Virus record (IMG/VR): IMGVR_UViG_3300035698_017726 | Coordinates: 1-64,000 of that record | Reading direction: 5' to 3' (one strand) | Origin: a virus | Length of the DNA: 64,000 nucleotides | Shown here: positions 20,787 to 53,802 of the stretch, piece after piece | How positions within the stretch are numbered: the first letter of the stretch is position 1 | How the letters are laid out: each line of letters opens with the position of its first letter | Translations under genes and position numbers: made by a program | Notes under the pieces: model-generated | Database searches by the model: none | What the model was told of the DNA's origin: nothing | Seen by the model: only the letters and a program-made list of their open reading frames with translations

Positions 20787-21702
20787 TCCCACTGTCTATT
20801 ACTACTTCTCTGAAGAGATGCAGAAAGAAGCGCTCGAAGCTGGAGCCTTCAAGGACTTTGCTGGGAGCGTCGGTAGAGATGCCTTGAACGCGGCCAAGAA
20901 AGTCCCTGAGTTCTTGTCGAGTCAAGCGGGCAACCTTGCTGCCGCAGCTACTACTAACGACGCAGGCAAGTCTCTTCCCGTCGGCGAGCAGCTGAGGAAT
21001 GTGGGTGGCGCAGCTTGGAAAGGCATCAAGGCAATTCCAGGTGCTACACTCAACACCGCTGTGGATTCTGCCAAGAACGTGACCAAGCCGCTTCGAGACT
21101 TAGTTCGGCACCCAGTAGATACGGCGCAGGCGGGGTGGGGTAAGCTCAGCCCAGGGGTGATCAAGGCCCAAGCCGCTGCCCAAGCCGCAACGCAAAATAC
21201 AGGGCGAGCATATGGGTCCACGATAGGAGATACCAATAGTCTGTCGGATAGGTTGCGTAACAGCGGCTGGTTGGCCAATGTCGCTAAGTACCAGGGCGGC
21301 GCCGAGACTGAGATTGGGGATCACCTCTCTAGAGCGAGGAACACCATCGGACGTGCGCTGCCGGGTCAGAAGGCGATCTTTACAGGCACTACTGCCTTGA
21401 GCACCGCTAATGCTCTTCGGCAAAAGGAAGACAGTAGGACGGGTAGGCAGCTAGGACTAGGAGAACGCGTAGGACGCGCCGCCGGTAGTGTAGGTGGGGC
21501 CCTGGCCATGAATACTTTTGCCCCAGGAGGCAACTTCGCAGCCCGCATGATTGGAAAGAGGTATGCAGGTAGGATGATTGGAGGAGCTACCTCTAATGCA
21601 GGTCGCGTGGTAGATACTGCGGTGAACAAGGTACGCGGTAGACTACCCCAAGATGCCGCGCAGCGACGTCTGCAGTATCCTGCTGGGTACGGAGCCAGGT
21701 AA
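20776..21702 (+). CDS. Basic Gly/Ala-rich putative cargo protein with F-SEEMQKEA leader
   Basis: N-terminal YYYFSEEMQKEA and C-terminal GxxxG stretches. Confidence 0.55.
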   Translation: MPTDPTVYYYFSEEMQKEALEAGAFKDFAGSVGRDALNAAKKVPEFLSSQAGNLAAAATTNDAGKSLPVGEQLRNVGGAAWKGIKAIPGATLNTAVDSAKNVTKPLRDLVRHPVDTAQAGWGKLSPGVIKAQAAAQAATQNTGRAYGSTIGDTNSLSDRLRNSGWLANVAKYQGGAETEIGDHLSRARNTIGRALPGQKAIFTGTTALSTANALRQKEDSRTGRQLGLGERVGRAAGSVGGALAMNTFAPGGNFAARMIGKRYAGRMIGGATSNAGRVVDTAVNKVRGRLPQDAAQRRLQYPAGYGAR

Positions 21703-23672
21703 TGAACACTCTCTCTAGCGAATACAACAGGTTCAACCCCAGACCTACCTCTAGCGCAACAGGTGGTCGAGGGTTCGGTGTTCGCTACCCATCGCCCTTC
21801 TTCGACGTAGCTCAACAGTTCTTACCAGAAAACATACACCAGCTCCATGTCTGGTGTCGGTACTACTTCCTTACGAACCCCATCATCAACGTCGCCTGCC
21901 AGAAGATGGCGGAGTATCCAGTCACCAAGCTGGTGTATGAGACCGAAGATGAGAAGATCCAGAAGCTCTACTCCACGCTGGAGAGGAACCTACACCTCCG
22001 CCAGTTCCAAGTAGAGGTAGGCCTCGATTACTTCGTCTATGGCAATGCCTTCGTAAGCATCTGGTATCCGCTGGAGAAATACCTCCTCTGTACCAAGTGC
22101 AACAAGCGACACAGAGCCTCCAAGTCTCGTGAGTTCTATAAGTGGAAGGACTCCAAGTTTCAGCTGAAGTGCCCTGACTGTGGCCATGAAGGCTGGGCCA
22201 AGGAAATCGACCACTATCCCCGGAAGTTCAGAGAGATCCGTCTCATCAGATGGAACACCGAGAACATTTACCTCAAGCATAATGAGGTCACGGGTGCGAC
22301 CAAGTACTACTACAAGATCCCGAAGAGCATCATCAATGACGTGAAGATGGGAGACCGGGAGACCGTAGAGACAATGCCGTCGGCGTTCCTGGAAGCTATC
22401 CGTAAGGGCCGCTCTCTCCTCTTCAAGAACGACAACTTCTTTCACCTGAAGCGGCCGACTATCGCGCAGAAGGACCAGGGCTGGGGAGCTCCCCTCATCT
22501 TTCCTCTGCTCAAGGACGCGTTCTACCTGCAGGTGATGAAGAAGGCCCAAGAGACGCTGCTCATGGAGCACGTCGTACCTCTCAGGGTCATCTTCCCTGG
22601 AGCTTCTCAGGACGGAAACGCCGGCGCGTACAGTACGTACAACCTCCAGAACTGGAAGGAGAAGATCAATACTGAGCTCAGCCTCTGGAAGAGGGACAAC
22701 AACTACATCCCAATTCTTCCGGTCAACGTAGGCTTCCAGCAGTGGGGCGGTACAGCTAAGGCTCTGATTCTCCACCAGGAATTTAGGTTCACGGCGGAGC
22801 AGATGCTGGCCGGTGCCGGTATCCCGGTCGAGTTCGTATTCGGTGGCCTTCAGTGGAGCGGTACGAACACATCTCTTCGCGCACTGGAGAACATGTTCGT
22901 TGGGTACAACCTCCAGCGGCACGAGCTGATCAACGACTTTATTATCGGTAGCATCGCCGAGTGGATGGAATGGCCCAAGGTCAAGTCCAAGTTCGACCGC
23001 TTCAAGATGGCCGACGACCTGCAGAGGTCGATGTTCTACCTTCAGCTCAACCAAGCACAGAAGATCTCCGACCGTAGGCTTCTCGAAGAGATCGGTGAGG
23101 ACTTTGACGCTGAGAACGGAAGGATGGACGAAGAGCTCAAGCGTCAGCTCCAGACTCAGCGCAAGATGCAGGTGGCCTCCGCCGATATCCAGGGCGAGTC
23201 CATGCTTCGTCAGTCACGGTACCAGGCCAAGGCTACTGCTCTGCAGACCGAAGCACAGATGGAGGCCCAGTTCGCTACCCAGGCAAAGGCAGAAGCTCAG
23301 GCGCAGGGACAGCCTCCTGCGCCAGAACCTCCTACCACGGCTTTCGATCAACAGGGCCAGCCTGGAAGTGGGCCTCCTGGCACAGAACTTCCCCCCGGTA
23401 TGCAGGGCATGGGTTCCCCTCTTCAAGAAGGGCAAGGCGGCGTAGATCTGGCGTACATGGCCAAGAGGGCTGCTTCATATCTGAAGACCGTTCAGAAGGA
23501 GTCCGGTGACGACGCCATGTATCAGGAGCTCCAGAAGATGCAGATGGATAATCCTCCTCTGTACAAGCTAGTCATTCAGGTCCTGAACGACGGCGGCTCT
23601 AAGGATAACCCCATGAGCGCCCTAGAGAATCCGAACCCATCTGGTCAGGCTGCTCCTGCTAGAACCGTATAG
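21702..23672 (+). CDS. Portal protein with Zn-ribbon insertion
   Basis: W.RYY...NPII, DYFVYGNAF, FHLKRP...GWG.P, coiled-coil crown and Q/P-rich tail. Confidence 0.8.
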   Translation: MNTLSSEYNRFNPRPTSSATGGRGFGVRYPSPFFDVAQQFLPENIHQLHVWCRYYFLTNPIINVACQKMAEYPVTKLVYETEDEKIQKLYSTLERNLHLRQFQVEVGLDYFVYGNAFVSIWYPLEKYLLCTKCNKRHRASKSREFYKWKDSKFQLKCPDCGHEGWAKEIDHYPRKFREIRLIRWNTENIYLKHNEVTGATKYYYKIPKSIINDVKMGDRETVETMPSAFLEAIRKGRSLLFKNDNFFHLKRPTIAQKDQGWGAPLIFPLLKDAFYLQVMKKAQETLLMEHVVPLRVIFPGASQDGNAGAYSTYNLQNWKEKINTELSLWKRDNNYIPILPVNVGFQQWGGTAKALILHQEFRFTAEQMLAGAGIPVEFVFGGLQWSGTNTSLRALENMFVGYNLQRHELINDFIIGSIAEWMEWPKVKSKFDRFKMADDLQRSMFYLQLNQAQKISDRRLLEEIGEDFDAENGRMDEELKRQLQTQRKMQVASADIQGESMLRQSRYQAKATALQTEAQMEAQFATQAKAEAQAQGQPPAPEPPTTAFDQQGQPGSGPPGTELPPGMQGMGSPLQEGQGGVDLAYMAKRAASYLKTVQKESGDDAMYQELQKMQMDNPPLYKLVIQVLNDGGSKDNPMSALENPNPSGQAAPARTV

Positions 23673-24433: not shown

Positions 24434-24678
24434 TTCTTCCTTGTACTCGCCGTTCCTTGGCTGGGCTCTTGCCCGCTTTTCTCTGTCCTCTGTTCCCCGT
24501 ATACTGCAGAACGGACCAGGTCTGCGAACTTCGCGCATGTACTGGGCCTGCTACTGCCTCCACTGCCTGTAGAAACTCCTGGAGGAGCGATTGGCTGTAG
24601 TGGTTTCATGATAAAGACAGAAAGGGGTTAGAACCTCTCCTGCCACAGAACTTATGCCTAAAACCAGTGAGCTATTGA

Positions 24679-27600
24679 ATGGCCAACCTAAATCCAGAGG
24701 GCGCATTCGCCTCCCTCAAAGAAAGAACCAAGGATGCCATCAAAGCCCAGTTCCCCTACGTCGGAAAGAAGCATCGACTAGAGCTGGACAATCTCGAGGT
24801 AGTAGACTCCGGAGATAACCCTTCTTCGCTCTACCATGTCGACAACATTCAGTCTCAATATGATGCCAAGACCAAGGGTAGAACGTGGGCTGTCCCCATC
24901 AAGGCCGACCTTCGGCTAGTGAATGTGGATACCGGAAAGGTGATGGACAGATCCTCCATCACCCTCGGCAGACTTCCCAAGCTCACTCGTAGGTACACCT
25001 ACATCATCGATGGACAGGAGCGTCAGCACGACTCCGTCTTCCTTCTTCGAGCTCGGCCGTACCACATCAAGACCGATAGTGGCGCCATTCAGGCAAAATG
25101 GAACCTGGCCAAGGGCCATGGCTTTGACCTAACCATCGACCCATCGACGGGTGTGATGAAGATGAAGGTCGGCACCACCAATATCGCTCTGTACCCCGTA
25201 CTCAAGGCCATGGGGCTATCCGACTCGGATCTGGAGGCTAAGTGGGGACGCAGGGTCCTTGAGACCAATAAGGCCAAGGGTAAGCCAGAAGAGCTGCTGA
25301 AGTTCCACAGGTTCTTCAGCCGGCGCTACAAGGGGTACTCGACTCCGAACGTAGATGAAGCCGCAGCCTTCGTCCGAACCACCTTCGAGGCCACAGAGCT
25401 CCGCCCCGACGCCATGAAGACGGCCTTCGGAAAGGAGTTCACCAAGGTAGATGGAGAGAATCTTCTCCTGTCTTCAGCCAGAATCCTCAACATCAGTAGA
25501 GGTAAGGAAGAGGAAGACGATAGGCAGTCCCTAGCCTCCAAGGACCTGACCGGAACAGAGGACTTCATCGTCAAGTTCATTGCGCGCGGCACCAGAGACA
25601 TGAGCCGTAAGGTCAAGAACAACCTGGACCGGGCCGATAAGATCTCCGACATCATCTCGCCGAATATGTACACGCGCACCATCCTGAGCACCTTCCAGGA
25701 AGCGCAGCGCCCAGACCAGACAAATCCGCTCAACTTCATCTCTGGCTACCAGAGAACCACTATCCGTGGCGCCTCCTACGGCGGCATCAAGGGAGAGCGC
25801 GTCAACCTGGACAGGGACAAGCAGATCAACCCATCCCACCTAGGCTTCTTGGATCCTGTGCAGACGCCTGAGTCTCAGGACACTGGCGTAGTCCTTCATC
25901 TGCCCCTGGGTGTACGGAAAGAAGGAACCCAGCTCAAGATTGACGTCTACGATGTCAAGAAGAAGGCCTGGGTGGCTGTCACTCCGGGAGACCTAGAGTT
26001 CGAGGTTGTTGCCTACCCGGACCAGGTCAAGTGGGTAGATGGAAAGCCTAAGCCCATCGCCAAGAACGTAGCTGTCTACGATAAGGACCGCCAGACGGCT
26101 AAGCGTCCTTGGACCTCAGTCAGGTACATCTTGGCCTCCACCAAGGGACTCTTCTCCTTCGGCGCCAACCTGATTCCCTTCCTAGGAAACAACAACGGAA
26201 ACCGCGCCATGATGGGCGTGAAGCAGATGGAGCAGGCTGTCTCACTGGTGAACCGGGAGCAGCCCTTGGTCCAGACCAAGGCCAGCAAGAACATGTCCTT
26301 CGAGGAAGCGGTCGGCTCGTTCAGTGCCCACTTCTCTCCCATAGACGGGACAGTTACCTCTGTCACCAAGGATGAGATCGTCATTCAGGGCGCCAACAGG
26401 AAGGTCTCACGCGTCCAGATCTACAACAACTTCCCCCTCAACGGAGGAAAGGGTGTCCTCAACGCTATCGCCAAGGTGAAGCGCGGAGAGAAGGTAAAGA
26501 AGGGACAGCTCATAGCGGACACCAACTTCACTGAGAACGGGCATCTTGCTCTTGGGGCTAACATCAGAGTGGCGTACATCCCCTACAAGGGGCTGAACTT
26601 CGAGGACGGTATCGTTGTCGCTGAGTCGGCAGCGAAGAAGCTGTCCTCTATGCACATGCACCAGAACTCGGTCACTATCTTCCCCGGCATGGTGGTCAAC
26701 AAGCAGAGATGGGCTGACTACGCTCTCCCAGAACTGGCCACCCAAGAGCGGATGGCCAAGCTGGACAATGATGGTGTGGTCAAGGAAGGAGAAAAGGTCA
26801 AGGAAGGGGACATCCTCGTTGCGCTACTAGCTCCCAGTGAGAGAACCAAAGACGACGAAGACGTAGCGTCTATCCGTAAGTCTCTGGTCAAGGACTACAA
26901 AGATCGGTCATTGTCATGGGACCACTCGTACCCAGGTGAGGTCGTCAAGGTCATCAGAAGCGGCAAGAAGATCATGGTCCATGTGAAGACCGAGGAGTCT
27001 CTAGCCGTAGGAGACAAGCTCACTGCTCGTCACGGCAACAAGGGCATCGTCAGCCGCATTCTTCCTGACCATGAGATGCCTCACACCAAGGACGGCAACG
27101 CTGTCCAGGTTCTGTTGAACCCAGCAGGTGTGCCTTCTCGTATGAACGCTGGGCAGATCCTAGAGACCGCTGCCTCCAAGATTGCCAAGAAGACCGGCAA
27201 GCCCTATGTCGTGGAGAACTTTGAGCACGGTAAGGACTACACGCAACAGGTCAAGGACGACCTGAAGAAGCACGGGCTGACCGACACCGAGGAGCTAATC
27301 GATGCCAAGACCGGTAGGTCACTAGGACAGGTCCTAGTAGGTGACCAGTATCTGCTGAAGCTTCACCATATGGTAGAGAAGAAGATGACGGCTAGGTCCT
27401 TTGGTGGATCCTACAACGTCCACGGGACTCCTCCAGGTGGGGCCGGTATCCCTGGTGGAGGCCAGCGTTTTGATCAGCTGTTGACCTACGCCATGCTAGC
27501 TCATGGCGCCAAGCACAACCTACGTGAGGCCTACACCTTCAAGAGCGACGCGGACCAAGACGAGGTCTGGTACGCCGTGATGACAGGCAGACCCCTACCC

Positions 27601-30600
27601 GACCCACAGCCCACTAGAGGTATGAAGAACTTCACTACCTATCTGAAGGCGATGGGCATCAATACAGAGAAGGAGGGAGACAAGTACGTCCTATCTCCCA
27701 TGACCGATAAGCAGACCACTGCCATCTCCAATGGCTCGTTGGAGTTCCCAGAGAAGGCACTGAAGGCAAAGGGCCTACGAACCATGGAGGAGGCCGGAGG
27801 TCTCTTCGACCCACGTAAGACCGGCGGCCTAAGTGGTCAGTTCTGGACACACATGGAGCTCGAGGAGAGGATCCCCAATCCCATCTTCGAAACGGCTATT
27901 CAGTCTCTACTCGGCATGAAGAAGAAAGAGTTCGAGCATATGGTTTCCGCCAGTGGTGGAGACGGAAAGCGCTCTGGCTTCGAGATCCTAGCAGAGCAGC
28001 TGCGAGTCATTGACGTTCCCTCTGAGCTGAAGAAGACGGAAGAGTCTCTTCCCAAGCTCAAGGGTCCGCAGCTAGCCAAGGCGTACAGAAAGGTACGGTA
28101 TCTCCGCGCGCTGAAGAGCAACAACGTCTCTCCTGTGGACGCGTACACCAACAAGGTGCTGCCGGTAGTTCCGCCATCGGTGCGCAGAGTAAGCATCGGC
28201 TTGGATGGGAGTCAGATCTTCGATAGCCTCAACGGGCTGTACAGGTCCGTAGGTCAGATCAATGGACAGCTAAAGAATGCTGACCCATCTACCCCATATA
28301 GTGAGATGCAGGCCCAGCGAGCTCACCTGTACGATGCTGTTAGGGCTCTTCGCATGACCGGCATGGATATGGGCGAGGGTACCAAGTCGCGACACCACTT
28401 CGGCCTGATGGAGAAGATGAAGGGCCAGGCGCCCAAGCATTCTTTCTTCCAGGACGGAGTACTGAAGCGTCGGCAGGACCTGTCAGGTAGGTCAACCATC
28501 ATTCCCGAGCCCGACATGGGACTGGATGAGGTGGGCATTCCTCTGCCAATGGCCTTGGAGCTGTATCGTCCCTTCGTACGTAGAGAGCTCTTCCTCAACC
28601 GAGGCTACGCGCCCAACCAAACTGGGCAGCTCGTTGATAAGAAGGACCCTGCAGCTATTGAGGCGCTCCACAGAGTCATCAATGAGCGTCCGGTTCTGCT
28701 GAAGAGAGACCCAGTACTCCACAAGTTCGGAGTCATGGCCTTCAAGCCGAAGATCATCTCCGGTAAGGCCATCGCCATTCACCCGCTGGTGACTGGCGGG
28801 TTCAACGCTGACTTCGATGGGGATGCCATGAGCATCTTCGTTCCGGTCTCTCAGGAAGCCGTTGATGAGGCCAAGACTAAGCTACTGCCGTCCAAGAACC
28901 TGTTCTCCCCTACCCACGGCGGCATCATGCCGGTGCCGGGTCAGGGGTCTCTACTTGGGCTGTACCAGGCTACCAAGTGGGGAACAGTCACTGCTGTCCC
29001 TACTGGCATCACTCCAACGAAGGCTATCTCGATGCTCCGAGGAGGGAAGCTCAAGCCCTCTGACGTCATCACCATTGGCGGAAAGACGACTACTCCCGGA
29101 CGACTACTCCTGGATTCGGAGCTCCCCAAGGACATGCGAGGGAACAAGACTCTTCTGTACGACCAGACCTTCCGTCTGGACAAGAGAGGACTGAAGAGAC
29201 TGCTGACCGAGGTCGGAAAGAAGCATCCTAAGAGCTTCCCAAGGGTAGTGGATGCATGGAAGGACCACGGCAACACGCTCGCCTACATGAACGGCAGCTC
29301 CATCACGCTGAACGACATCCATGACGGCAAGGAGATTAGGGACCAGGTCCTAAAGAAGTACAAGCTCGAAGAGGACTCCATCCGGTCCAGTACATTGGAC
29401 CGGAAAACCAAAGACAAGAAGGTAGTGGCCCTGTATAGCAAGGCTATGGGTGAGCTGGAGACAGTAGGCAACGTTGCGTATACTCGTAGAGGGGACAACA
29501 ACCTTCATGAGTGGGCCGCATCCGGAGCTCGTGGAGGCTGGTCCCAGTTCAGTCAGCTAGTCATGGGGCCAATGCTGGTTCAGGATTCCAAGGGTAAGCC
29601 TGTTCCTGTTCCCATCACCAAGTCCTTCGGCGAGGGACTATCCGTTCCTGAGTACTGGGCCTCTCTACACGGTGCCAGAAAGGGGACCCTCGATAGGGCT
29701 ACTGAGACTGAGAAGCCTGGCTCGCTGACCAAGGACATTATCAACACCGTCATCAATCACCACGTCACTGCGGATGACTGCGGTACCGATAAGGGCGCCG
29801 CCATGAACCCCATGGACGCGGATTGTACGGACAGGTACTTGGCCAAGGATGTGAAGCTCAAGGGTGGAGACATCATCGCGGCCCGAACCTTGCTGACTCC
29901 TCCGTCTCTTACCCGGATTCGGAACTCCAACATCCAGAAGATCGTAGTGCGGTCTCCTCTTCACTGCCGTCAGGCCTCCGGTATCTGCGCAAAGTGCTAC
30001 GGACTCAACGAGAACGGTAAGCTCTACTCGGTAGGCACCAACGTTGGTGTCATCTCAGGGAACGCCTTGGGAGAGCCTGTCACTCAGCTCACCATGAAGA
30101 CCTTCCACACCGGAGGTACCGTCACTGGGGGCGGTGAGGATGGCGATGTAATCGATAAGTTCAAGAGGGTTCAGCAGCTTTTCTTCGTACCAAAGAAGCT
30201 TCCAGGAGCCGCAACGTTGGCCACAAAGAGCGGTACCATCACTAAGGTGGTGGCCAACAGGTCACTTGGCGGCATGGATGTCTATATCGACGCTAAGCGT
30301 CACTATGTTCCTGCTGGCCTGACGCTACTGCCTAGCGTCTCCAAGGGACTGACAGTCAAGAGAGGAGATCCCCTGTCTTCTGGTCCAATCAATCCCCATT
30401 CTCTGCTGAAAGAGACCGGGAACGTCAACGCGGTACGCGCGTACATGACCGATGAACTACAGAAGACCTACCCTTCCGGGATTAGAAGGCGTAATATTGA
30501 GACCGTCGTTCAGGCAATGACCAACCTGACACAGATTGAGGCGGCAACTGACCACCCAGAATACGATAGAGGCCAGATGCTTCCGCTGTCTCAAGTAGAG

Positions 30601-30852
30601 GCGGCCAACAGACAGGCAAAGATGACTGGAGCCACTCCGATTCTACACAAGCCTATGCTCAAGCCAATGACAGAGATGCCGTTGGCGGGGCAGGAAGACT
30701 GGTTGGCCCGTCTTAACTACCGTCGCCTAGAGAACACGTATACTGAGGGGGCCGCCCAAGGCTGGTCCTCAGACATCCATGGGCACCCAATCGCTGGCCT
30801 CGCTCACGGCGCCGAGTTTGGGACGAAGCCATTTAAGGAGATCAAGTCATGA
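24679..30852 (+). CDS. rpoBC: Single-chain beta-beta' fused DNA-directed RNA polymerase
   Basis: Beta motifs DQTNPL, QTPE, NFEDG, GDKLTARHGNKG, GVPSRMN, KLHHMV, GGQRF. Beta' motifs SGRSTI, NADFDGD, GARKG, RSPLHC..C..CYG, GEPVTQLTMKTFHTGG. Confidence 0.97.
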   Translation: MANLNPEGAFASLKERTKDAIKAQFPYVGKKHRLELDNLEVVDSGDNPSSLYHVDNIQSQYDAKTKGRTWAVPIKADLRLVNVDTGKVMDRSSITLGRLPKLTRRYTYIIDGQERQHDSVFLLRARPYHIKTDSGAIQAKWNLAKGHGFDLTIDPSTGVMKMKVGTTNIALYPVLKAMGLSDSDLEAKWGRRVLETNKAKGKPEELLKFHRFFSRRYKGYSTPNVDEAAAFVRTTFEATELRPDAMKTAFGKEFTKVDGENLLLSSARILNISRGKEEEDDRQSLASKDLTGTEDFIVKFIARGTRDMSRKVKNNLDRADKISDIISPNMYTRTILSTFQEAQRPDQTNPLNFISGYQRTTIRGASYGGIKGERVNLDRDKQINPSHLGFLDPVQTPESQDTGVVLHLPLGVRKEGTQLKIDVYDVKKKAWVAVTPGDLEFEVVAYPDQVKWVDGKPKPIAKNVAVYDKDRQTAKRPWTSVRYILASTKGLFSFGANLIPFLGNNNGNRAMMGVKQMEQAVSLVNREQPLVQTKASKNMSFEEAVGSFSAHFSPIDGTVTSVTKDEIVIQGANRKVSRVQIYNNFPLNGGKGVLNAIAKVKRGEKVKKGQLIADTNFTENGHLALGANIRVAYIPYKGLNFEDGIVVAESAAKKLSSMHMHQNSVTIFPGMVVNKQRWADYALPELATQERMAKLDNDGVVKEGEKVKEGDILVALLAPSERTKDDEDVASIRKSLVKDYKDRSLSWDHSYPGEVVKVIRSGKKIMVHVKTEESLAVGDKLTARHGNKGIVSRILPDHEMPHTKDGNAVQVLLNPAGVPSRMNAGQILETAASKIAKKTGKPYVVENFEHGKDYTQQVKDDLKKHGLTDTEELIDAKTGRSLGQVLVGDQYLLKLHHMVEKKMTARSFGGSYNVHGTPPGGAGIPGGGQRFDQLLTYAMLAHGAKHNLREAYTFKSDADQDEVWYAVMTGRPLPDPQPTRGMKNFTTYLKAMGINTEKEGDKYVLSPMTDKQTTAISNGSLEFPEKALKAKGLRTMEEAGGLFDPRKTGGLSGQFWTHMELEERIPNPIFETAIQSLLGMKKKEFEHMVSASGGDGKRSGFEILAEQLRVIDVPSELKKTEESLPKLKGPQLAKAYRKVRYLRALKSNNVSPVDAYTNKVLPVVPPSVRRVSIGLDGSQIFDSLNGLYRSVGQINGQLKNADPSTPYSEMQAQRAHLYDAVRALRMTGMDMGEGTKSRHHFGLMEKMKGQAPKHSFFQDGVLKRRQDLSGRSTIIPEPDMGLDEVGIPLPMALELYRPFVRRELFLNRGYAPNQTGQLVDKKDPAAIEALHRVINERPVLLKRDPVLHKFGVMAFKPKIISGKAIAIHPLVTGGFNADFDGDAMSIFVPVSQEAVDEAKTKLLPSKNLFSPTHGGIMPVPGQGSLLGLYQATKWGTVTAVPTGITPTKAISMLRGGKLKPSDVITIGGKTTTPGRLLLDSELPKDMRGNKTLLYDQTFRLDKRGLKRLLTEVGKKHPKSFPRVVDAWKDHGNTLAYMNGSSITLNDIHDGKEIRDQVLKKYKLEEDSIRSSTLDRKTKDKKVVALYSKAMGELETVGNVAYTRRGDNNLHEWAASGARGGWSQFSQLVMGPMLVQDSKGKPVPVPITKSFGEGLSVPEYWASLHGARKGTLDRATETEKPGSLTKDIINTVINHHVTADDCGTDKGAAMNPMDADCTDRYLAKDVKLKGGDIIAARTLLTPPSLTRIRNSNIQKIVVRSPLHCRQASGICAKCYGLNENGKLYSVGTNVGVISGNALGEPVTQLTMKTFHTGGTVTGGGEDGDVIDKFKRVQQLFFVPKKLPGAATLATKSGTITKVVANRSLGGMDVYIDAKRHYVPAGLTLLPSVSKGLTVKRGDPLSSGPINPHSLLKETGNVNAVRAYMTDELQKTYPSGIRRRNIETVVQAMTNLTQIEAATDHPEYDRGQMLPLSQVEAANRQAKMTGATPILHKPMLKPMTEMPLAGQEDWLARLNYRRLENTYTEGAAQGWSSDIHGHPIAGLAHGAEFGTKPFKEIKS

Positions 30853-31517
30853 AGGCAGAGAAAGTAGCCTCCGCATACGCCATTGCGCTCCGAGTCAGAT
30901 CTGAGCTCGACTTCGAGAAGGCAGCGTCGTACCGCGCCAACGGACTCTCCGCCTATCAGGCGCTCTTCACTTCGATGGAGAAGGGCGCTAGCCTAGAGAA
31001 GGCGGCCATGGGGGGCATGGGCATCGGTATGGGAGGGCAGGACTGGGTAGAGCGCTTCATGGATACACCCTTCTACCAGGACGCCCTGGCGTTCGAAGCG
31101 CAGCAGGCAGAGCAGGGCGTTCAGCGTGCTCAGCGACGCGCAGAAGATCGGCAGGCCTGGGCCGAAGAGTCCCATATGGACGTCCAGCGTGCTCAGCTCG
31201 AGTCCCAGCTTGCTGGGTGGAAGCTGCAGGAAGCACAGCAGCAGGCCGCAGAGCCCGTGCCTGTAGCGTCCGGCGGTCCTCCTCCTCCAGGAGCCGAAGG
31301 TGAGCTACCTCCCGTAGAGCCCCCGGCCCCAGAAATGAACGCTCCTGCTCCTGCTGCAGCTATGCAGCAGGCACCTCCCGAAGCAGGTCCTCCTGCAGGA
31401 GGGCCACCCAAGATGGCCGGAGTCCTCGGTATTTTGGACAAAGAGCGGGAGAAGAAGGCTAAGAAGGCTAAAGGTAAAGACGGTAAGCTCAGCGAGTTCC
31501 TGAACTCCAGGAAGTAA
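30849..31517 (+). CDS. K-x-A-rich, Pro/Gln-rich putative internal protein
   Basis: ATGA-coupled to the RNAP gene; EKVAS, EKAAS, EKGAS, EKAAM, PKMAG. Confidence 0.6.
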   Translation: MKAEKVASAYAIALRVRSELDFEKAASYRANGLSAYQALFTSMEKGASLEKAAMGGMGIGMGGQDWVERFMDTPFYQDALAFEAQQAEQGVQRAQRRAEDRQAWAEESHMDVQRAQLESQLAGWKLQEAQQQAAEPVPVASGGPPPPGAEGELPPVEPPAPEMNAPAPAAAMQQAPPEAGPPAGGPPKMAGVLGILDKEREKKAKKAKGKDGKLSEFLNSRK

Positions 31518-32507
31518 ATGCGTCGATTTGGATCAAGAGGTTCCGCACGTCGGAACCTTACTCCTGCGTCCGTGACGGAGGCCCAGATTCTGGATGTCAA
31601 TCCGGACGCCTGGACTATGACGTTACGGACTGTAGCTAACGATGAGATCTTTACCCACGTTCCCATCGTCTCGACATACCTGCATCATTTCGCCGGTGAG
31701 GGCATTCATTACATGCCTGAGGCCGGCACTATGTGCTGGATATGTAAGCCTAGTGAGGGCGATACCAAGCCCTTCATCGTGGCCTTCAGGCCTCCCGCTG
31801 ACGAGAAAGGAACCTTCAGAGCCAACAGACCTGTTCTGAACCCAGGGGACGTCCACATCTCTACTAGAGACGGCAACGCTATCAAGATTCGTAGAGGCGG
31901 CGTCATCGAGATTGAGGCTAGCCCCCTGGCTAGGACCTTCTGGCTTCCAGTGGCGAACAAGATCATGTCCTTTGCGGCCAACCACGAGATTGTAACTCTT
32001 GGTGGGTCACAGAAGTGGAGGACCGCTCGTCCAGAAGAAGACGAGGACGGGAATCACGCCACCAAGTACACGCTCAAGGCCAAAGAGTTCTCCGAGCACA
32101 AGCAGCAGGTGGTTCAGCTGGACGCCGGCGGGCAAATAGATGGTGGAGTCTTCAAGCTCCAAGTCTTTGCCGATGGAAACATTGGCAGCGAAGACGCCCT
32201 AGATGCTCAGTTCTCTGCGACTATCGATAAAGAAGGTAAGGTCGCCATAGAAGCTGACGATGTGGACATCCACCTACATGAAGGAAAGACTGTCAGAATC
32301 TTCGACTCAGATGGCTCTGCGACAGAGGGAGTTGTCCTCGGGAAGACTTTTCTCACCGACCTTCTGACGTTCTTTACGGGTCTTCAGACTATACTTGGTA
32401 CGATAGGGCTCACTGTTCCGGGCCTCTCCGATATGATCACGAAAACTACCACTACTCTCGGTGTCGAGGGTGCCCCCTACCTCTCTACCAGAACGAAGAC
32501 AGAATAG
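31518..32507 (+). CDS. Probable baseplate spike (gp5/gpV-like OB fold)
   Basis: OB-fold-like N-terminus (YMPEAGT, LNPGD...RDGN), beta-repeat body, VVLG..F near the C-terminus. Confidence 0.6.
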   Translation: MRRFGSRGSARRNLTPASVTEAQILDVNPDAWTMTLRTVANDEIFTHVPIVSTYLHHFAGEGIHYMPEAGTMCWICKPSEGDTKPFIVAFRPPADEKGTFRANRPVLNPGDVHISTRDGNAIKIRRGGVIEIEASPLARTFWLPVANKIMSFAANHEIVTLGGSQKWRTARPEEDEDGNHATKYTLKAKEFSEHKQQVVQLDAGGQIDGGVFKLQVFADGNIGSEDALDAQFSATIDKEGKVAIEADDVDIHLHEGKTVRIFDSDGSATEGVVLGKTFLTDLLTFFTGLQTILGTIGLTVPGLSDMITKTTTTLGVEGAPYLSTRTKTE

Positions 32508-32737: not shown

Positions 32738-35149
32738 ATGTTCCACACAGCCACCAATGAGTCCCTCTTCGTAGAGCCCGTGGATACCGACAACCTGTTG
32801 GAGAAGCAAGCAGACTCTATCGCCAGGATGCCTGACGATGAAGAGAAGTGGCCTGCCCACGCTCTCTCGGAAGTCCACAAGCAGATGCCATATCTGAGCG
32901 ACTTCGATGTGGACATCAATCTCGATAGGGTTGAGCCCGAATCAGGCTACGCGCTGGGCTCTGCGTCTCTGCGGAACAAGACTCGTGCGGACGTCCCTCC
33001 TGGGGATACCAAGCCCACGAACCTCATCAGGATCCCACTCATCATCAAGGACCGGCACCTGCAGCCGTTCCATGTCTTCGAGCTTGGGGGTAGCACATAT
33101 CCGCTCAACCAAGAGCGCGTGCGCCAGGCAATGCTGGACCCCGAAGTCTTCGAGGCCCAGCCCACTAAGCTTCCAGGAAGCAGCTCTCTCACTGACCAGC
33201 TTTTCCCTCCATACCAGCAGCGTCAGGGCTTCGGCCGCGTGTCCGAGCCTTCTGCCATGGGCATCAGCAAGATCTCCTCGTCTCCTGAGAAGATCGCTAA
33301 CATCTTCCTCAACTTCTCCATGGGGAACATGATTCCGGCGATGACTATTCTCGACAAGATCGAGGGTATGAAGCTGCGACCAGGTGTAGTCCCGCAGAAC
33401 CTGGTCTTCCACAAGATCCAAGGCACCAGCTACGTAGTCGGCTTCCCCAAGACCTTCGCCAAGAAGCTCTACGGCGTACAGGATCAGGCTCAACTTCGTA
33501 AGCTGCTGTCGACTCCTATGTACGACGAGGCCATGACGGCTCGCTCAGGTCGTCCTAGCCCCGGTAAGTTCGTTCTCCTGGAGAAGAAGGGCGACAAGTA
33601 TATCTACCAGAAGCCCAAGATGACCCCATCTCTGATGAACAAGGGACAGGGCGGCGGAGATGCTGTCCGTGAGTCCACCATGAAGATGGGCGGAGCCCGA
33701 GGCGCGGCCTTGGGTGCGGCGCTAGGACAGCTTCCGGGCCACATCTTGGAGACTCAGCAGCTCTATGGACCTGGAAACGTCGAAGGCCTTCGGGATGTCG
33801 GTGCCTTTGCGCAACCTGTAGGAGCCGCCATCGGTGCAGCCCTAGGTGCCGACTCGGGACACAGGCTGAGCTCTGCCGCTGGCGCCACTATTGGTGGCGG
33901 TCTGGGAGCTCTTGGAGGAGCTCTTGGAGGAGCGGTTCCAAGTGTCCTGGCCAACCCGGAACAGGAGGGATGGGACAATCCGATTCCTACGAAACTTACC
34001 CACGGAGGAGCTCTAGGCGGCTCCCTGCTCGGTGCAAGCCTAGGCGCCAGCCTCGCCCACGGGAAGCCTCAGCTTCCTCCAGTAGAGAAAGCAGCATCTG
34101 TACGGATGCGTGACTTCCTGAAGCTCGGCTTCGACGGCGCCTTCAACAACGTAGGCTATCAGGAAGGAGTAGCTCCTGGTGGAGACGACCTCGGTGATCC
34201 GCAAGGCGACATGCCGCAGCAGAACCCACAGGATCAAGCGCCCCCACAGGTGGGTCCTGAGGCACAGCAACGGCCTCCAGTCCCAGGACAGGACCCAGCC
34301 ATGCAGCAGGCTGCTGCAGCTCCCCAGCATCCTCCTGCTGAGCCTGCGCAACAGATGGATGAGGAGCAGGCAGCTTACCAAGAGAAGATGCAGGCAGTAA
34401 GTGACGCTCTTCAGACCCATCCTCAGGCAGCAGGACTTATTGAACTGCAGGCGCAGCTGATGTCGACCACTGACCCAGAGCAGGGCCAGAAGATGCTGAT
34501 GACCCATCCTATTGTGAAGGGTCTCGAGCAGGCGTACGGCGTCAAGTTCACCCACGTCGGCCCAGATGAGTCTGGCCAGTCTCTCACCTTCGACATCGAG
34601 AAGCCGTGGGAGAAGCGTGAGCAGGAAGGGCTCAAAGAGCAGCTCCAGCAGTCCCAGCAGGGTGGTGCCCCACAGCCAGGCAGTGAAGAGCCTAAGATGG
34701 CGAGCTTGCGGGATTTTTTCTCAAGGGCTGACCGAGGCGTCCCACAGGGCACGCACGCACGCTATACGCCCGGTCTCCTTGGCGAGGCTCAAGGAAAGAA
34801 GGGCAAGGTTTGGAAGCTGGGCAAGAAAGAGCCTGTCAAAGCAGAAGAGCCTAAGGCTGAGCCCAAGAAGGAAGAGCCCAAAGAGGCCAACGTGGCCGCA
34901 GCTCTTGCTCCTATCGCCAAAGCCATAGGTGGTCGTGCTCTCGGTGGGGCAGTAATTGGTGGAGGCCTCGGGGCCGCTACTGGGGCCGCTACTGCAGGTG
35001 AGGGCAACAGATTGAAGGGCGCACTGAAGGGTGGAGTAGTAGGTGGAGCGGCTGGTGGAGCTGTAGGCGCGGGCAGCGGTGCCTACAAAGGTATCGGGCA
35101 ACATATGGCCGGCGGCAGTATCTGGGATTCCGTAAAAGGGAACAACTAA
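32738..35149 (+). CDS. Modular virion polyprotein-like protein with glycine zippers
   Basis: Globular N-domain, then modules bounded by EKIA, EKAAS, PKMAS and PKEAN; two Gly-zipper clusters. Confidence 0.65.
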   Translation: MFHTATNESLFVEPVDTDNLLEKQADSIARMPDDEEKWPAHALSEVHKQMPYLSDFDVDINLDRVEPESGYALGSASLRNKTRADVPPGDTKPTNLIRIPLIIKDRHLQPFHVFELGGSTYPLNQERVRQAMLDPEVFEAQPTKLPGSSSLTDQLFPPYQQRQGFGRVSEPSAMGISKISSSPEKIANIFLNFSMGNMIPAMTILDKIEGMKLRPGVVPQNLVFHKIQGTSYVVGFPKTFAKKLYGVQDQAQLRKLLSTPMYDEAMTARSGRPSPGKFVLLEKKGDKYIYQKPKMTPSLMNKGQGGGDAVRESTMKMGGARGAALGAALGQLPGHILETQQLYGPGNVEGLRDVGAFAQPVGAAIGAALGADSGHRLSSAAGATIGGGLGALGGALGGAVPSVLANPEQEGWDNPIPTKLTHGGALGGSLLGASLGASLAHGKPQLPPVEKAASVRMRDFLKLGFDGAFNNVGYQEGVAPGGDDLGDPQGDMPQQNPQDQAPPQVGPEAQQRPPVPGQDPAMQQAAAAPQHPPAEPAQQMDEEQAAYQEKMQAVSDALQTHPQAAGLIELQAQLMSTTDPEQGQKMLMTHPIVKGLEQAYGVKFTHVGPDESGQSLTFDIEKPWEKREQEGLKEQLQQSQQGGAPQPGSEEPKMASLRDFFSRADRGVPQGTHARYTPGLLGEAQGKKGKVWKLGKKEPVKAEEPKAEPKKEEPKEANVAAALAPIAKAIGGRALGGAVIGGGLGAATGAATAGEGNRLKGALKGGVVGGAAGGAVGAGSGAYKGIGQHMAGGSIWDSVKGNN

Positions 35150-35209
35150 CCTTTCCAGTGGCTTGACCGGTAAAGGTAGCCTAGCTGGCGATATGCTTGG
35201 GAGAACGAA

Positions 35210-36697
35210 ATGAGCTTGTGTGAAAAGATTGCTGGGACCGTTAACCGCGATGACTTCGCTAGGTTTGACGATGTCTTTGAGGATCGGAATTTCCGACCTC
35301 TCCTCCACAATAACGAGGCGGTTTGGGGCTGCTTGAATAAGCTGGCCTCCAAGCCTATCTTGACGGGGAAGGAGCTACTCAAGGTGGCGATGGGCTCAGC
35401 ACCTACACGTACAGACGTTGTACAGATCCGTCCACACGGCTACGGCTATCGAGTCAAGGTCTCTGCTGCTCCTGACATGGTCGCTCCCCAAGAGACCGAC
35501 ATGAGCCAGCAGCAGGCTCAGCAGACCATGCCACAGGAGGCCCTTGATGCGGCCGATCATCAGGGTGTGGCCACAATGACTGGCGTCGACGCCCAGCCTG
35601 ACCCTCTGGTAGAGAAGTCGCAGCCCATTACCGGCTTTGGTGTCTACAAGGTCTACCAAGCCGACACAGGTAAGCAGATTCTTGGCTATGTCATTCCTGG
35701 ACTGTTCGACCCCACTACGGGCGCGGCCAGCCAGATGACCCTGTTCACCAACGGTGGGCAGTACGCTATGATTCCAGGTCAGGTCTCCGGTGTGCTAGCA
35801 GGAATCAACTTCAACCTGCCTGAGAGTAACAACGTCAGGGGCATGGGTATCTTCTGGAAGACCAACGGTAAGGCGCTTCTAGCTACGGTTCCCTACACCA
35901 TCGTCTCTCAGATCACTACACCGGCCGGCGAGTACTTCGCGGCGCAGGACATGAACGGTCAGGAGATTCAGGTACGCCTCTCCCCAGGCCTGGTCCGTCC
36001 CATCGCTTCCCGACCAGGTGAGGTCATCATCCCCGATGACTTTAGCTTCCTACCTCTCGACAACCCCATTGAGATTGAGCAGGGCGACCCCATGGGCGGA
36101 GAGAAGGCAGCTTCCCTTCCCACCATGATGGAGATCCGTGCCTGGTCCACCGGCTGCCGGCTGGACGGCCCCGTGCTGGAGAAGGTCGGTTCCGGTGAAC
36201 ACTCTCTGTCCGATGGTCTCTTCTGGATGGCAGCCACAGGTATCCCACAGAATCTCGGCATGGCTCTGCTAGAGAAGGCTGCTGCCGCCAATGAAGCTAT
36301 CCGTGTCTACGGACTGCAGCCCCTCTCCACCATCGACGATGCTGTCGCCGAAGCCAGAGAGGACGCCAAAGAGGCGATGGTCAACAGCCAGTGCCCACAG
36401 AGAGTCAACCTCCTTAGGGAGATGGCTATCATCACTAGCGACAAGATGGCTTCGGCCATGGTCGATGTGAGTTCCGTGGATTCTGTGTTGGCCCTCAACT
36501 TCCTGAACCCAGAGAACCTCGAGTCCTTCGTAGACGAGATTCCCGCTCTGGAAGAGGCTGCGTCCAAGATTGCTGAGTTGGTCCTGGCGTCACAGATTGG
36601 TCTCCAGTCCGTGTCCAAGACCGCAGCAGTTAGTGCTATGAAGGGACTGGAGCAGGTCATTCAGGGCCTCAAGGCGCTGAAGAACTACGAGGTCTAG
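35210..36697 (+). CDS. K-x-A-rich internal head/core protein
   Basis: EKIAG, NKLAS, LKVAM, EKAAS, EKAAA, DKMAS, SKIAE, SKTAA. Confidence 0.65.
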   Translation: MSLCEKIAGTVNRDDFARFDDVFEDRNFRPLLHNNEAVWGCLNKLASKPILTGKELLKVAMGSAPTRTDVVQIRPHGYGYRVKVSAAPDMVAPQETDMSQQQAQQTMPQEALDAADHQGVATMTGVDAQPDPLVEKSQPITGFGVYKVYQADTGKQILGYVIPGLFDPTTGAASQMTLFTNGGQYAMIPGQVSGVLAGINFNLPESNNVRGMGIFWKTNGKALLATVPYTIVSQITTPAGEYFAAQDMNGQEIQVRLSPGLVRPIASRPGEVIIPDDFSFLPLDNPIEIEQGDPMGGEKAASLPTMMEIRAWSTGCRLDGPVLEKVGSGEHSLSDGLFWMAATGIPQNLGMALLEKAAAANEAIRVYGLQPLSTIDDAVAEAREDAKEAMVNSQCPQRVNLLREMAIITSDKMASAMVDVSSVDSVLALNFLNPENLESFVDEIPALEEAASKIAELVLASQIGLQSVSKTAAVSAMKGLEQVIQGLKALKNYEV

Positions 36698-53228: not shown

Positions 53229-53792
53229 ATGGCCGGAACCTATATCTCAATCCTGCAGCCAGGTTACTCCACTCTGTGGACGCGTGACCTGCTGTACACG
53301 CCAGGCACCAATGAAAGTGCCTCCATCAACCCCTTCGATCCCAACGATGATCGACCCCTCGTAGAGGGTGAGTGGCTAGAGCATTCGTCTACGGTACAAA
53401 ACCGCGTCTCACGCGGCGGCGCCAATGGTGCCGGTGCTGGAGCATGTACTGCTCCAGGTATCAAAGAAAACGAAGGCATGAACCCCTCGTATATGTACTT
53501 CATGGAACAGGGACGGTACGACGCGCAAGCAACTAAGCGCGTTCACATGATCTTGGGCCCCTACGGATACGAGTTCCGTACCAAGCTCTGTGACGATACC
53601 GTGGCTATTCCGGTGAACACCGCTCTTACCGTCTGGGACTGGGATGGCCCGGCAGGCGCATGGGGCTTGGTACGTCGTGTTCTTGGAGCTCGCGTAGATG
53701 CGGCTTCTTGGACCGTTGGTCGCGTTGTTCGTGTCTTTGGCACAAACGACGTTAGCGTCATCTTCATGCCTGGTTCCGGCCACGCGGCCTAA
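53229..53792 (+). CDS. Probable head decoration/cement protein
   Basis: Immediately upstream of the MCP gene with a perfect SD; beta-rich. Confidence 0.55.
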   Translation: MAGTYISILQPGYSTLWTRDLLYTPGTNESASINPFDPNDDRPLVEGEWLEHSSTVQNRVSRGGANGAGAGACTAPGIKENEGMNPSYMYFMEQGRYDAQATKRVHMILGPYGYEFRTKLCDDTVAIPVNTALTVWDWDGPAGAWGLVRRVLGARVDAASWTVGRVVRVFGTNDVSVIFMPGSGHAA

Positions 53793-53802
53793 GGAGTACA
53801 CC

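What the first reader, a model, noticed from the sequence alone, without database searches (positions are those of the whole stretch)
24679..30852. Phage-encoded, single-chain, cellular-type beta-beta' RNA polymerase inside the structural module
Seen: the end of beta (YLKAMGIN) joins directly to the start of beta' (YVLSPMTDKQTTAISNG) near 27630-27740. NADFDGD is intact at 28804-28824. At 2057 aa it is much shorter than bacterial beta plus beta'. No alpha, omega or sigma gene is recognisable in the window. The gene is ATGA-coupled to a K-x-A protein and followed by the spike gene. Known: phiKZ RNAPs are split into subunits, crAss virion RNAP is highly divergent, and rpoBC fusions occur in Helicobacter and Wolbachia. 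Inference: a minimal, probably virion-packaged RNAP that transcribes early genes.
Basis: partly seen in the sequence, partly recalled or inferred. Interest (0 to 1): 0.85.

Follow-up and report, generated by a model that had tools for sequence, protein, structure and literature searches.

The report
Single-chain beta-beta' phage RNA polymerase
One 2057-codon gene of an uncultured large phage, sitting between the portal and tail-spike genes, encodes both large subunits of a bacterial-type RNA polymerase as a single slimmed-down chain; it belongs to a big, mostly uncultured phage family whose cultured cousin carries the enzyme in its virus particle.

Summary
It carries beta domains (Rpb2_3/6/7), then beta' domains (Rpb1_2/5), an intact NADFDGD at 28804-28824, and an ATGA overlap with the next ORF.

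It is not a one-off or an assembly artefact. At least 120 protein clusters and 246 IMG/VR contigs encode the same fused ~2050-2130-aa protein, on phage genomes of about 180-210 kb. Gene order is conserved: portal, RNAP, central spike, then terminase.

In my trees the phage enzymes form one group, cleanly separated from 24 bacteria of about ten phyla.

The size reduction comes from loss of four gammaproteobacterial inserts, the beta' N-terminal zinc ribbon and a few smaller pieces. The catalytic motifs, second zinc site, flap, lid, rudder and clamp helices remain.

No alpha or omega gene was found in this record, and no alpha gene in five complete relatives. A sigma-70-family gene does exist in this genome, outside the window.

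Virion packaging is inferred only. It rests on the conserved position among virion genes and on mass spectrometry of the distant relative Salmonella phage Arash.

This scan has already met the family on two other genomes. I found no paper describing the fused architecture. Verdict: a new variant of a known kind, interest about 0.6.

The parts
24679..30852 (+). Fused beta-beta' RNA polymerase gene, 2057 aa
   Evidence: One open frame. Pfam beta and beta' domains in order. Full-length fused homologues in at least 120 clusters and most of the 79 IMG/VR loci kept.
24679..27660 (+). Beta module (residues 1 to about 994). Lacks the Salmonella beta segments 1-26, 228-349 (SI1), 934-1043 (SI2) and 1125-1178. 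Flap and flap tip lie at residues 690-760.
   Evidence: Family HMM against Salmonella beta. 41-row MAFFT alignment.
27028..27045 (+). Beta active-site motif RHGNKG (residues 784-789)
   Evidence: Conserved in alignment A1: five positions invariant, H785 at 90% or more.
27640..27708 (+). Beta to beta' junction: beta C-end, 5-residue link KEGDK, then beta' from about residue 17
   Evidence: Alignment to Salmonella and H. pylori. The junction is conserved across 20 family members and is not a variable linker.
27823..27849 (+). Place where the beta' N-terminal zinc ribbon (E. coli numbering C70-C88) is missing
   Evidence: Salmonella beta' 64-88 has no counterpart in any phage row, and there is no cysteine there.
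28225..28359 (+). Beta' clamp helices (coiled coil), the usual docking site of sigma region 2. Retained but divergent.
   Evidence: Aligned without a length change to Salmonella beta' 260-310. AF2 model of residues 990-1460 shows a helical hairpin with pLDDT around 90. The model matches bacterial beta' at E about 1e-27.
28804..28824 (+). Catalytic NADFDGD
   Evidence: Residues 1376-1382. Conserved in A1: five positions invariant, N1376 and F1379 at 90% or more.
29779..29997 (+). Second beta' zinc site. It holds all five cysteines of the protein (1701, 1716, 1763, 1770, 1773).
   Evidence: Cysteine count. C1701, C1763, C1770 and C1773 are invariant in A1.
21702..23672 (+). Portal protein gene
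   Evidence: 31% identical to the Arash portal gp204 and to the Vibrio phage D69 homologue. Weak PHROG portal hit. Found upstream of the RNAP gene in 64 of 79 related loci.
30849..31517 (+). 222-aa ORF overlapping the RNAP stop by ATGA. Not conserved in relatives.
   Evidence: Sequence. Only 1 of 79 loci has a homologue. No Pfam or PHROG hit.
31518..32507 (+). Central baseplate spike (gpV/VgrG-like). In most relatives it is the gene directly after the RNAP gene.
   Evidence: AF2 model with pLDDT 84. Foldseek matches include the phi812 baseplate, R2 pyocin spike, P2 gpV and VgrG. Present in 72 of 79 loci.
32738..36697 (+). Two conserved paralogous ORFs (803 and 495 aa) of unknown function between spike and terminase
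   Evidence: Both match the same ORF of about 670 aa in relatives. Present in 69 and 67 of 79 loci. The only Pfam match is a Gly-zipper, just under the curated cut-off.
41043..42839 (+). Large terminase subunit
   Evidence: Pfam GpA_ATPase. 31% identical to Arash gp1.
53698..54960 (+). Major capsid protein
   Evidence: 26% identical over 355 aa to the Arash major capsid protein gp226. No Pfam hit.

Best explanation
**What it is.** The gene encodes a complete bacterial-type RNA polymerase catalytic core as one polypeptide. The C-end of beta is joined to about residue 17 of beta' by a short, conserved link.

**What is kept and lost.**
- Kept: both double-psi-barrel active-site motifs, the bridge-helix/trigger-loop module, the second zinc site, and the flap, lid, rudder and clamp helices.
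- Lost: the beta' N-terminal zinc ribbon and the lineage-specific inserts.

**Where it occurs.** It is the only RNAP gene of its phage type. These are uncultured phages of about 180-210 kb, distantly related to Salmonella phage Arash. No alpha or omega gene was found with it.

**Proposed mechanism (inferred).**
1. The covalent link replaces the alpha-dimer scaffold in holding beta and beta' together.
2. Promoter recognition is supplied by phage-encoded sigma-70-family factors.
3. The gene is expressed with the virion genes, between portal and spike. Copies are packed into the capsid and delivered with the DNA, so the first phage genes are transcribed without host RNAP.
4. Newly made enzyme, with another sigma, carries out later transcription.

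**Shown:** gene, fusion, motifs, family, synteny, phylogenetic separation, presence of a sigma gene.
**Inferred:** alpha-independence, the sigma partnership, packaging and timing.
For: **Gene and motifs**
- Single ORF with ordered beta and beta' domains.
- Catalytic motifs and Zn2 cysteines invariant or nearly so.

**Retained and lost elements**
- Junction, zinc-ribbon loss and retained flap and clamp helices are seen in alignments and in a model.

**Family and synteny**
- At least 120 clusters at 41-65% identity.
- 246 IMG/VR contigs.
- Portal upstream in 64 of 79 loci and spike downstream in 72 of 79.

**One RNAP gene, no alpha**
- Five complete relatives have one RNAP gene each and no alpha NTD.
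- No alpha or omega in this record.

**Sigma**
- A sigma-70-family gene lies at 85380-86180(-) of this genome: Sigma70_r4 at 29-31 bits, and its only database relatives are RpoD-like.
- Arash sigma gp10 carries Sigma70_r3 and gp196 carries Sigma70_r2.

**Virion evidence from a relative**
- In Arash particle MS, gp206 had the most spectra (3516), gp216 had 1210 and sigma gp10 had 467 (PMC10585845).

**Phylogeny**
- Phage and bacterial sequences are separated with SH-aLRT 100 under both LG+G4 and LG+C20.
Against: - There are no proteomic or expression data for this phage or any fully fused member.
- Arash is only about 30% identical. Its particle preparation gave 116 proteins, including RNR, primase and helicases, so carry-over of abundant infected-cell proteins is possible.
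- Sigma genes are detectable by Pfam in only some relatives. The sigma of this genome has no detectable orthologue in 14 related records.
- This record is only 62% complete, so a second RNAP, an alpha-like gene or a virion sigma could lie in the missing part.
- Use of host alpha cannot be excluded from sequence.
- I found no shared promoter motif.
Confidence: 0.7

Rival explanations
1. It is a real phage RNAP but not a virion enzyme. It is made after infection and transcribes middle and late genes only, while host RNAP reads the early genes (perhaps redirected by the phage sigma).
For: There is no direct evidence of packaging for this phage. The Arash particle preparation also contained many non-structural enzymes. 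The sigma gene of this genome lies far from the virion block, and its only pairwise match in Arash is gp196, the sigma I did not see in the particle-list excerpts.
Against: The position between portal and central spike is conserved in most of 79 loci. The Arash RNAP pieces rank first and fifth in spectral counts, above or close to the major capsid protein, and sigma gp10 was found with them. With one RNAP gene per complete genome, there is no separate early enzyme.
Confidence: 0.2
2. The fused enzyme does not use sigma at all. It recognises promoters through another phage factor or by itself, as phiKZ/AR9-type phage RNAPs do, and the phage sigma factors act on host RNAP.
For: The flap tip and clamp helices are strongly divergent from bacterial ones. 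The zinc ribbon, which contributes to sigma and promoter contacts in bacteria (my recollection of the field), is deleted. A sibling first-reader note (e1-5983585) reads this as loss of the sigma docking surfaces. Sigma detection across relatives is patchy.
Against: The flap, flap tip, lid, rudder and clamp coiled coil are all retained in length and predicted structure. In Arash a sigma-family protein is found in particles together with the RNAP. Patchy detection is expected for fast-evolving sigmas: the six-frame Sigma70_r4 search misses the two annotated Arash sigmas.
Confidence: 0.15
3. It is bacterial DNA (an rpoBC fusion like that of Helicobacter) mis-assembled or mis-binned into a viral contig, or a recent capture of a host gene.
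For: Natural rpoBC fusions exist: Helicobacter ORFs of 2891-2903 aa. Several 'phage' database records with RNAP hits are plainly bacterial contamination.
Against: All bacteria are only 28-34% identical. Phage sequences form one group apart from 24 bacteria, including Campylobacterota. The same gene sits in the same phage gene order in dozens of contigs, some with terminal repeats and rated 100% complete. The Helicobacter fusion keeps the zinc ribbon and a long linker.
Confidence: 0.02

Closest known systems
RNA polymerase of Salmonella phage Arash (gp206 + gp216; PMC10585845) and of Vibrio phages D69/D148/D181
   Same: - Same phage-specific RNAP lineage; they are the sister group in the tree.
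- Same beta to beta' junction and the same loss of the zinc ribbon.
- Same portal, small ORF, RNAP gene order.
- Sigma-family genes are present in the genome.
   Different: - Only about 30% identical.
- In Arash and the Vibrio phages, beta' is cut after about family position 1460 into a second gene of about 606 aa. The two pieces are separated by other genes, or by a homing endonuclease in D148/D181.
- Here, and in hundreds of uncultured relatives, the whole enzyme is one chain.
- As far as my searches of the Arash paper showed, it calls gp206 'beta' and does not discuss the fusion.
mReC: multisubunit-RNAP-encoding Caudovirales (Weinheimer & Aylward 2020, PMC7481178)
   Same: Uncultured tailed phages from IMG/VR with recognisable beta and beta' homologues that branch apart from cellular RNAPs.
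   Different: - Every mReC row I read lists separate beta and beta' genes, and some contigs carry two sets.
- mReC have T4-type structural genes: MCP PF07068 and TerL PF03237.
- Here TerL matches PF05876 and the MCP has no Pfam hit.
Natural rpoBC fusions of Helicobacter (and Wolbachia)
   Same: Beta C-end covalently joined to beta' N-end in one ORF.
   Different: - They are cellular enzymes of about 2890 aa.
- They keep the zinc ribbon, the lineage inserts and a long linker.
- They group with Campylobacterota, not with the phage clade.
- They work with alpha2 and omega (established knowledge).
phiKZ/AR9-type jumbo-phage multisubunit RNAPs (PMC7598289, PMC7824862)
   Same: Phage-encoded two-barrel RNAPs without alpha or omega, one set of which is packed in the virion.
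   Different: - Those are split into 4-5 polypeptides and are very divergent.
- They come as two sets, virion and non-virion.
- No sigma is found in those phages.
- Here there is one chain, one gene per genome, close enough to bacteria for Pfam matches as strong as E = 5e-68, and a sigma gene is present.
Single-chain two-barrel phage RNAPs (crAss-like gp66, YonO)
   Same: Both barrels lie in one polypeptide. The crAss enzyme is a virion protein (my own recollection, not checked here).
   Different: Those are so divergent that beta/beta' HMMs do not detect them (PMC7481178). This protein is a full-length, readily alignable beta + beta'.

Membership tests
Bacterial-type multisubunit RNAP core (beta + beta') | Beta double-psi barrel with the conserved RHGNKG lysine motif, and Rpb2_6 domain | tested here: met
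   PF00562 at E = 5e-68. R784-G789 conserved, five of six positions invariant.
Bacterial-type multisubunit RNAP core (beta + beta') | Beta' NADFDGD Mg-binding loop, bridge helix and trigger loop (Rpb1_2, Rpb1_5) | tested here: met
   PF00623 and PF04998. In N1376-D1382 and the trigger-loop FHTGG stretch, most positions are invariant and the rest conserved.
Bacterial-type multisubunit RNAP core (beta + beta') | Beta' N-terminal zinc ribbon (four Cys, E. coli 70-88) | tested here: not met
   The segment is deleted in all phage rows. The protein has no cysteine before residue 1701.
Bacterial-type multisubunit RNAP core (beta + beta') | Second beta' zinc site | tested here: met
   C1701, C1763, C1770 and C1773 are invariant.
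Bacterial-type multisubunit RNAP core (beta + beta') | Alpha dimer and omega as partner subunits | tested here: inconclusive
   No PF01000 or PF01192 match in this record. No PF01000 match in five complete relatives. Host alpha or a divergent analogue cannot be excluded.
Bacterial-type multisubunit RNAP core (beta + beta') | Sigma-docking elements (beta flap tip, beta' clamp helices) and a sigma factor | tested here: inconclusive
   The elements are present but divergent. A sigma-70-family gene is in the genome. Binding was not tested.
Arash-type phage RNAP | Phage-specific clade with the beta to beta' N-part fusion and no zinc ribbon | tested here: met
   Tree support is 100. The junction is shared.
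Arash-type phage RNAP | Gene follows the portal gene | tested here: met
Arash-type phage RNAP | Beta' split into a second gene after about position 1460 | tested here: not met
   One uninterrupted ORF here and in most of the 79 loci kept.
Arash-type phage RNAP | Protein present in purified virions | not testable with these tools
   Known only for Arash itself.
mReC RNAP (PMC7481178) | Separate beta and beta' genes in phages with a T4-type capsid (PF07068) and terminase (PF03237) | tested here: not met
   The gene is fused. TerL matches PF05876 and the MCP has no Pfam hit.
Helicobacter-type cellular rpoBC fusion | Groups with its bacterial lineage and retains full-length beta' N-terminus | tested here: not met
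phiKZ/AR9-type jumbo phage RNAP | Core split into 4-5 polypeptides, two paralogous sets, no sigma | tested here: not met
   One gene per complete genome. A sigma gene is present.

The most novel reading that the evidence does not exclude
This is a natural, alpha-independent, single-chain bacterial-type RNA polymerase. It folds and works without any assembly scaffold, pairs with its own highly divergent sigma factors, and is threaded through the phage tail as one 228-kDa chain to start infection. That would make it a separate, ancient branch of the bacterial RNAP lineage maintained only in viruses, and a minimal model (and orthogonal tool) for sigma-dependent transcription.
Probability: 0.4. 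Interest if true: 0.8.

Novelty: new variant of a known kind. Interest (0 to 1): 0.6.

Why it matters
- **Assembly.** Bacterial RNAP is thought to need the alpha dimer to assemble beta and beta'. A widespread natural enzyme that makes do with a covalent link, and without the beta' zinc ribbon, would show what the minimal sigma-dependent core is.
- **Virion delivery.** It would be a third solution to virion-delivered transcription, alongside N4-type single-subunit enzymes and phiKZ-type split enzymes.
- **Practical use.** A one-gene bacterial-type RNAP with its own sigma could serve as an orthogonal expression system.
- **Phylogenetics.** The family is large (hundreds of contigs) and long enough to be a good marker for an otherwise unannotatable phage group.
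- **Caveat.** The family has already been met twice in this scan on other genomes, so this window adds another member rather than a first sighting.

Tried and rejected
- **Near-identical phage search.** Megablast of 20 kb against phage records found nothing.
- **First IMG/VR scan.** The single-protein query failed because its patterns were too specific. The alignment query worked.
- **Neighbour annotation.** PHROG and Pfam on ten neighbours gave almost nothing.
- **Sigma in the window.** ORF 44092-44799(-) gave a weak Sigma70_r4 hit, but it is a MerR/HTH_17 protein, not a sigma.
- **Sigma orthologues.** The sigma of this genome found no match in 14 related records. Arash gp10 and gp196 find nothing else in this genome.
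- **Promoter motif.** K-mer enrichment in 53 upstream regions gave no convincing shared motif; the top words are tRNA-derived or occur only 3-4 times. The sigma-70 consensus scan upstream of the gene found nothing.
- **The 803-aa neighbour.** The ESM Atlas gave no usable lead.
- **Split intein in Arash.** Rejected, because gp206 and gp216 match the family HMM end to end with no extra intein halves.
- **mReC membership.** Rejected after reading the paper's supplement.
- **Literature.** Searches for a fused phage rpoBC found no such paper.
- **SNF2 helicase.** The SF2 helicase at 17046-18461 is not a clear orthologue of the Arash virion SNF2 helicase gp217; only the Walker A region aligns.


Full report
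**1. The observation**

The window carries one uninterrupted ORF at 24679-30852(+), 2057 aa.
- Pfam places Rpb2_3, Rpb2_6 (E = 5e-68) and Rpb2_7 at residues 346-960. Rpb1_2 and Rpb1_5 follow at 1331-1959.
- NADFDGD is residues 1376-1382, which is nt 28804-28824.
- The stop overlaps the next start as ATGA at 30849-30852.

**2. What the record is**

The window is the first 64 kb of an IMG/VR virus record of 114,832 bp. CheckV rates it 62% complete.
- The left arm (minus strand) holds replication genes: family A DNA polymerase, DnaB-type helicase, an SF2 helicase, a UDG and a RecA-like ATPase.
- From 18.9 kb onwards the plus strand holds virion genes:
  - portal at 21702-23672 (31% identical to the Arash portal);
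  - the RNAP gene;
  - a central spike at 31518-32507 (AF2 pLDDT 84; Foldseek matches to the phi812 baseplate, R2 pyocin spike, P2 gpV and VgrG);
  - the large terminase at 41043-42839;
  - the major capsid protein at 53698-54960.

**3. It is a family, not an accident**

- A protein search found 998 hits. The best 120 clusters (41-65% identity) are nearly all 2040-2130 aa and cover the whole query. They lie on contigs of up to 199 kb.
- IMG/VR holds 246 contigs with relatives. Most of the best 79 loci match residues 1 to about 2050 in one stretch. Some contigs have terminal repeats and are rated 100% complete at 177-210 kb.
- Longer relatives (2400-2990 aa) carry inteins or LAGLIDADG inserts at seven or more sites. 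One site is directly after NADFDGD.
- Gene order is conserved across the 79 loci:

| Gene | Loci with it (of 79) |
|---|---|
| Portal, upstream | 64 |
| Spike | 72 |
| 803-aa / 495-aa paralogues | 69 / 67 |
| 292-aa ORF | 60 |
| Terminase, within 10 kb | 49 |

- The ATGA-coupled 222-aa ORF is peculiar to this phage. Only 1 of 79 loci has a homologue. In most relatives the spike gene follows the RNAP gene directly.

**4. Anatomy of the protein**

I compared a family HMM and a 41-row alignment with Salmonella beta and beta', which share E. coli numbering.
- The beta C-end ('MGINTE' against 'LGINIE') runs through a 5-residue link into beta' at about residue 17.
- The junction is conserved across the family, so it is not a loose linker.
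- Segments missing relative to Salmonella:

| Subunit | Missing segments |
|---|---|
| beta | 1-26; 228-349 (SI1); 934-1043 (SI2); 1125-1178 |
| beta' | 1-14; 64-88 (zinc ribbon with its four cysteines); 130-159; 703-716; 947-1130 (SI3); C-terminal tail after about 1370 |

- Most of the roughly 690-residue difference is therefore lineage-specific gammaproteobacterial inserts. The zinc-ribbon loss is the notable core deletion.
- Retained elements:
  - RHGNKG, NADFDGD and the trigger-loop FHTGG stretch;
  - the second zinc site, which holds all five cysteines of the protein;
  - the flap with its tip (residues 690-760);
  - the lid, clamp helices and rudder (residues 1159-1254).
- The flap tip and clamp helices are divergent in sequence.
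- An AF2 model of residues 990-1460 (pLDDT 79) shows the clamp coiled coil at high confidence. It matches bacterial beta', including the cyanobacterial gamma subunit, at E about 1e-27.
- This contradicts the stronger reading, in a sibling note (e1-5983585), that the sigma-docking surfaces are lost. They are remodelled, not removed.

**5. Relationship to cells and to other phages**

- The best PDB sequence matches are bacterial beta' chains (E = 1e-108). No structure of this family exists.
- In GTDB genomes the only fused phage-type hit is a 162-kb contig binned with a Leptolyngbyaceae MAG (42% identity). All true bacterial rpoB/rpoC are 28-34% identical.
- I built trees of 41 sequences: 15 fully fused phage proteins, Arash, Vibrio phage D69 and 24 bacteria of about ten phyla.
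  - Phage and bacterial sequences fall on either side of one long branch. SH-aLRT is 100 under LG+G4 (1874 columns) and under LG+C20+F+G4 (1547 columns).
  - Arash plus Vibrio are sister to the fully fused family.
  - The trees are unrooted, because I had no archaeal sequences. The phage branch joins near the fast-evolving CPR bacteria. A deep origin and an accelerated offshoot therefore remain open.
- Because Arash gp206 (1525 aa) already contains the same beta to beta' junction, the fusion predates the whole phage clade.
- Arash and the Vibrio phages differ by a break in beta' after family position ~1460. Other genes, or a homing endonuclease in D148/D181, lie in between. That break is close to the cyanobacterial gamma/beta' split at positions 1476-1490.
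- The mReC phages of Weinheimer & Aylward are a different group. All rows I read have separate beta and beta' genes, and mReC have T4-type capsid and terminase families.

**6. Partner subunits**

- Six-frame Pfam searches of this record find no alpha NTD and no omega.
- Five complete relatives have no alpha NTD and exactly one RNAP gene each.
- This genome does encode a sigma-70-family protein at 85380-86180(-), outside the window.
  - Sigma70_r4 scores 29-31 bits and r2 18-20 bits.
  - Its only database relatives are RpoD-like proteins at 35-36% identity.
  - Its region 2 aligns to Arash gp196.
- Arash gp10 (Sigma70_r3, 35.7 bits) and gp196 (Sigma70_r2, 39.2 bits) are also sigma-family proteins.
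- Sigma detection in other relatives is patchy. The six-frame Sigma70_r4 search also finds neither annotated Arash sigma, so absence of a hit means little.

**7. Virion packaging**

The only experimental evidence is from Arash (PMC10585845).
- gp206 gave the most spectra of all proteins (3516).
- gp216 gave 1210, sigma gp10 gave 467, and the adjacent SNF2 helicase gp217 gave 1148.
- The authors themselves note that abundant infection-phase enzymes might contaminate particles. Among 116 proteins they list RNR, primase and helicases.
- Supporting points: the strictly conserved position between portal and spike, and a single RNAP gene per genome. Together these favour packaging, but it is not shown for this phage.

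**8. Mechanism proposed**

This is a single-chain core whose covalent junction substitutes for alpha-mediated assembly.
- Phage sigma factors give promoter specificity.
- Capsid-packed copies start transcription on entry.
- New copies continue it later.

Rival readings (a non-virion enzyme, a sigma-independent enzyme, a bacterial contaminant) are weighed in their own sections.

**9. Novelty**

- Full-text searches found no description of a fully fused, bacterial-type phage RNAP.
- As far as my searches of the Arash paper showed, it annotates 'beta' and 'beta'' without noting the fusion.
- This scan has already reported the same family on two other genomes, with the same reading (e1-5344837, e1-5341331, e1-5362260/64).
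- One of those members has no cysteine at all. This one keeps the second zinc site.

I therefore rate it a new variant of a known kind. It is real, widespread and biologically attractive. In this window it is another member, not a first sighting.

Noticed in passing
relatives P0006-P0130; L031 (IMG/VR 188-kb genome, 2986-aa ORF): Inteins or LAGLIDADG inserts of 340-513 aa interrupt the fused RNAP in many relatives. There are at least seven sites (window-protein numbering ~385-399, ~782-794, ~820-830, ~956, ~1256-1276, 1382 directly after NADFDGD, ~1806-1816 in the trigger loop). Some proteins carry two.
   Followed up: partly
window 24679-30852: The 2057-aa protein has only five cysteines, all in the second beta' zinc site (1701, 1716, 1763, 1770, 1773). 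An earlier report of this scan describes a relative with none at all.
   Followed up: partly
L002 (Arash) and L001 (Vibrio phage D69) versus L104/L118/L150: The break that splits beta' in Arash and the Vibrio phages (family position ~1458-1465) lies within about 20-30 residues of the cyanobacterial/melainabacterial gamma/beta' split (1476-1490). This looks like a recurrent permissive site.
   Followed up: no
window 32738-35149 and 35210-36697: The 803-aa and 495-aa ORFs both match the same single ORF of about 670 aa in relatives, so they are paralogues from a duplication. The 803-aa one has a Gly-zipper-like stretch near its C-end (score just under Pfam's cut-off). They are conserved next to the spike but have no known fold or family.
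   Followed up: partly
window 24012-24678: A 667-bp gap lies between the portal block and the RNAP start. It holds one or two small minus-strand ORFs (24031-24351, 24225-24563) and two minus-strand terminator-like hairpins (24041-24024, 24640-24619). In Arash the RNAP gene follows the small ORF without a gap.
   Followed up: no
window 24679-24730 (residues 1-17): A conserved N-terminal extension ('MANLNPExAFExLK...') precedes the part that aligns to bacterial beta. It loosely resembles the 'leader helix' that another first-reader note (e1-5983583) proposes as a capsid-targeting signal. It could be the packaging tag.
   Followed up: no
L089 (GTDB contig CBDHHL010000046.1, 162 kb) and L045 (IMG/VR record flagged provirus): One fused-RNAP phage contig is binned in a Leptolyngbyaceae cyanobacterium MAG, and IMG/VR calls one 177-kb relative a provirus. 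These are possible host or lifestyle hints, or binning artefacts.
   Followed up: no
L002:21088-22506 (Arash gp217); window 17046-18461(-): In Arash an SNF2-family helicase is encoded right after the RNAP C-part and is abundant in particles. This recalls the Swi2/Snf2 helicase linked to phiKZ-type RNAP genes. The window has a conserved SF2 helicase (ResIII/DEAD) just upstream of the virion block, found in 42 of 79 loci, but orthology is not shown.
   Followed up: partly
window 39168-39926(-) and 15986-16720(-): An RNase HII gene sits inside the virion-gene arm, and a UDG-superfamily gene sits in the replication arm.
   Followed up: no
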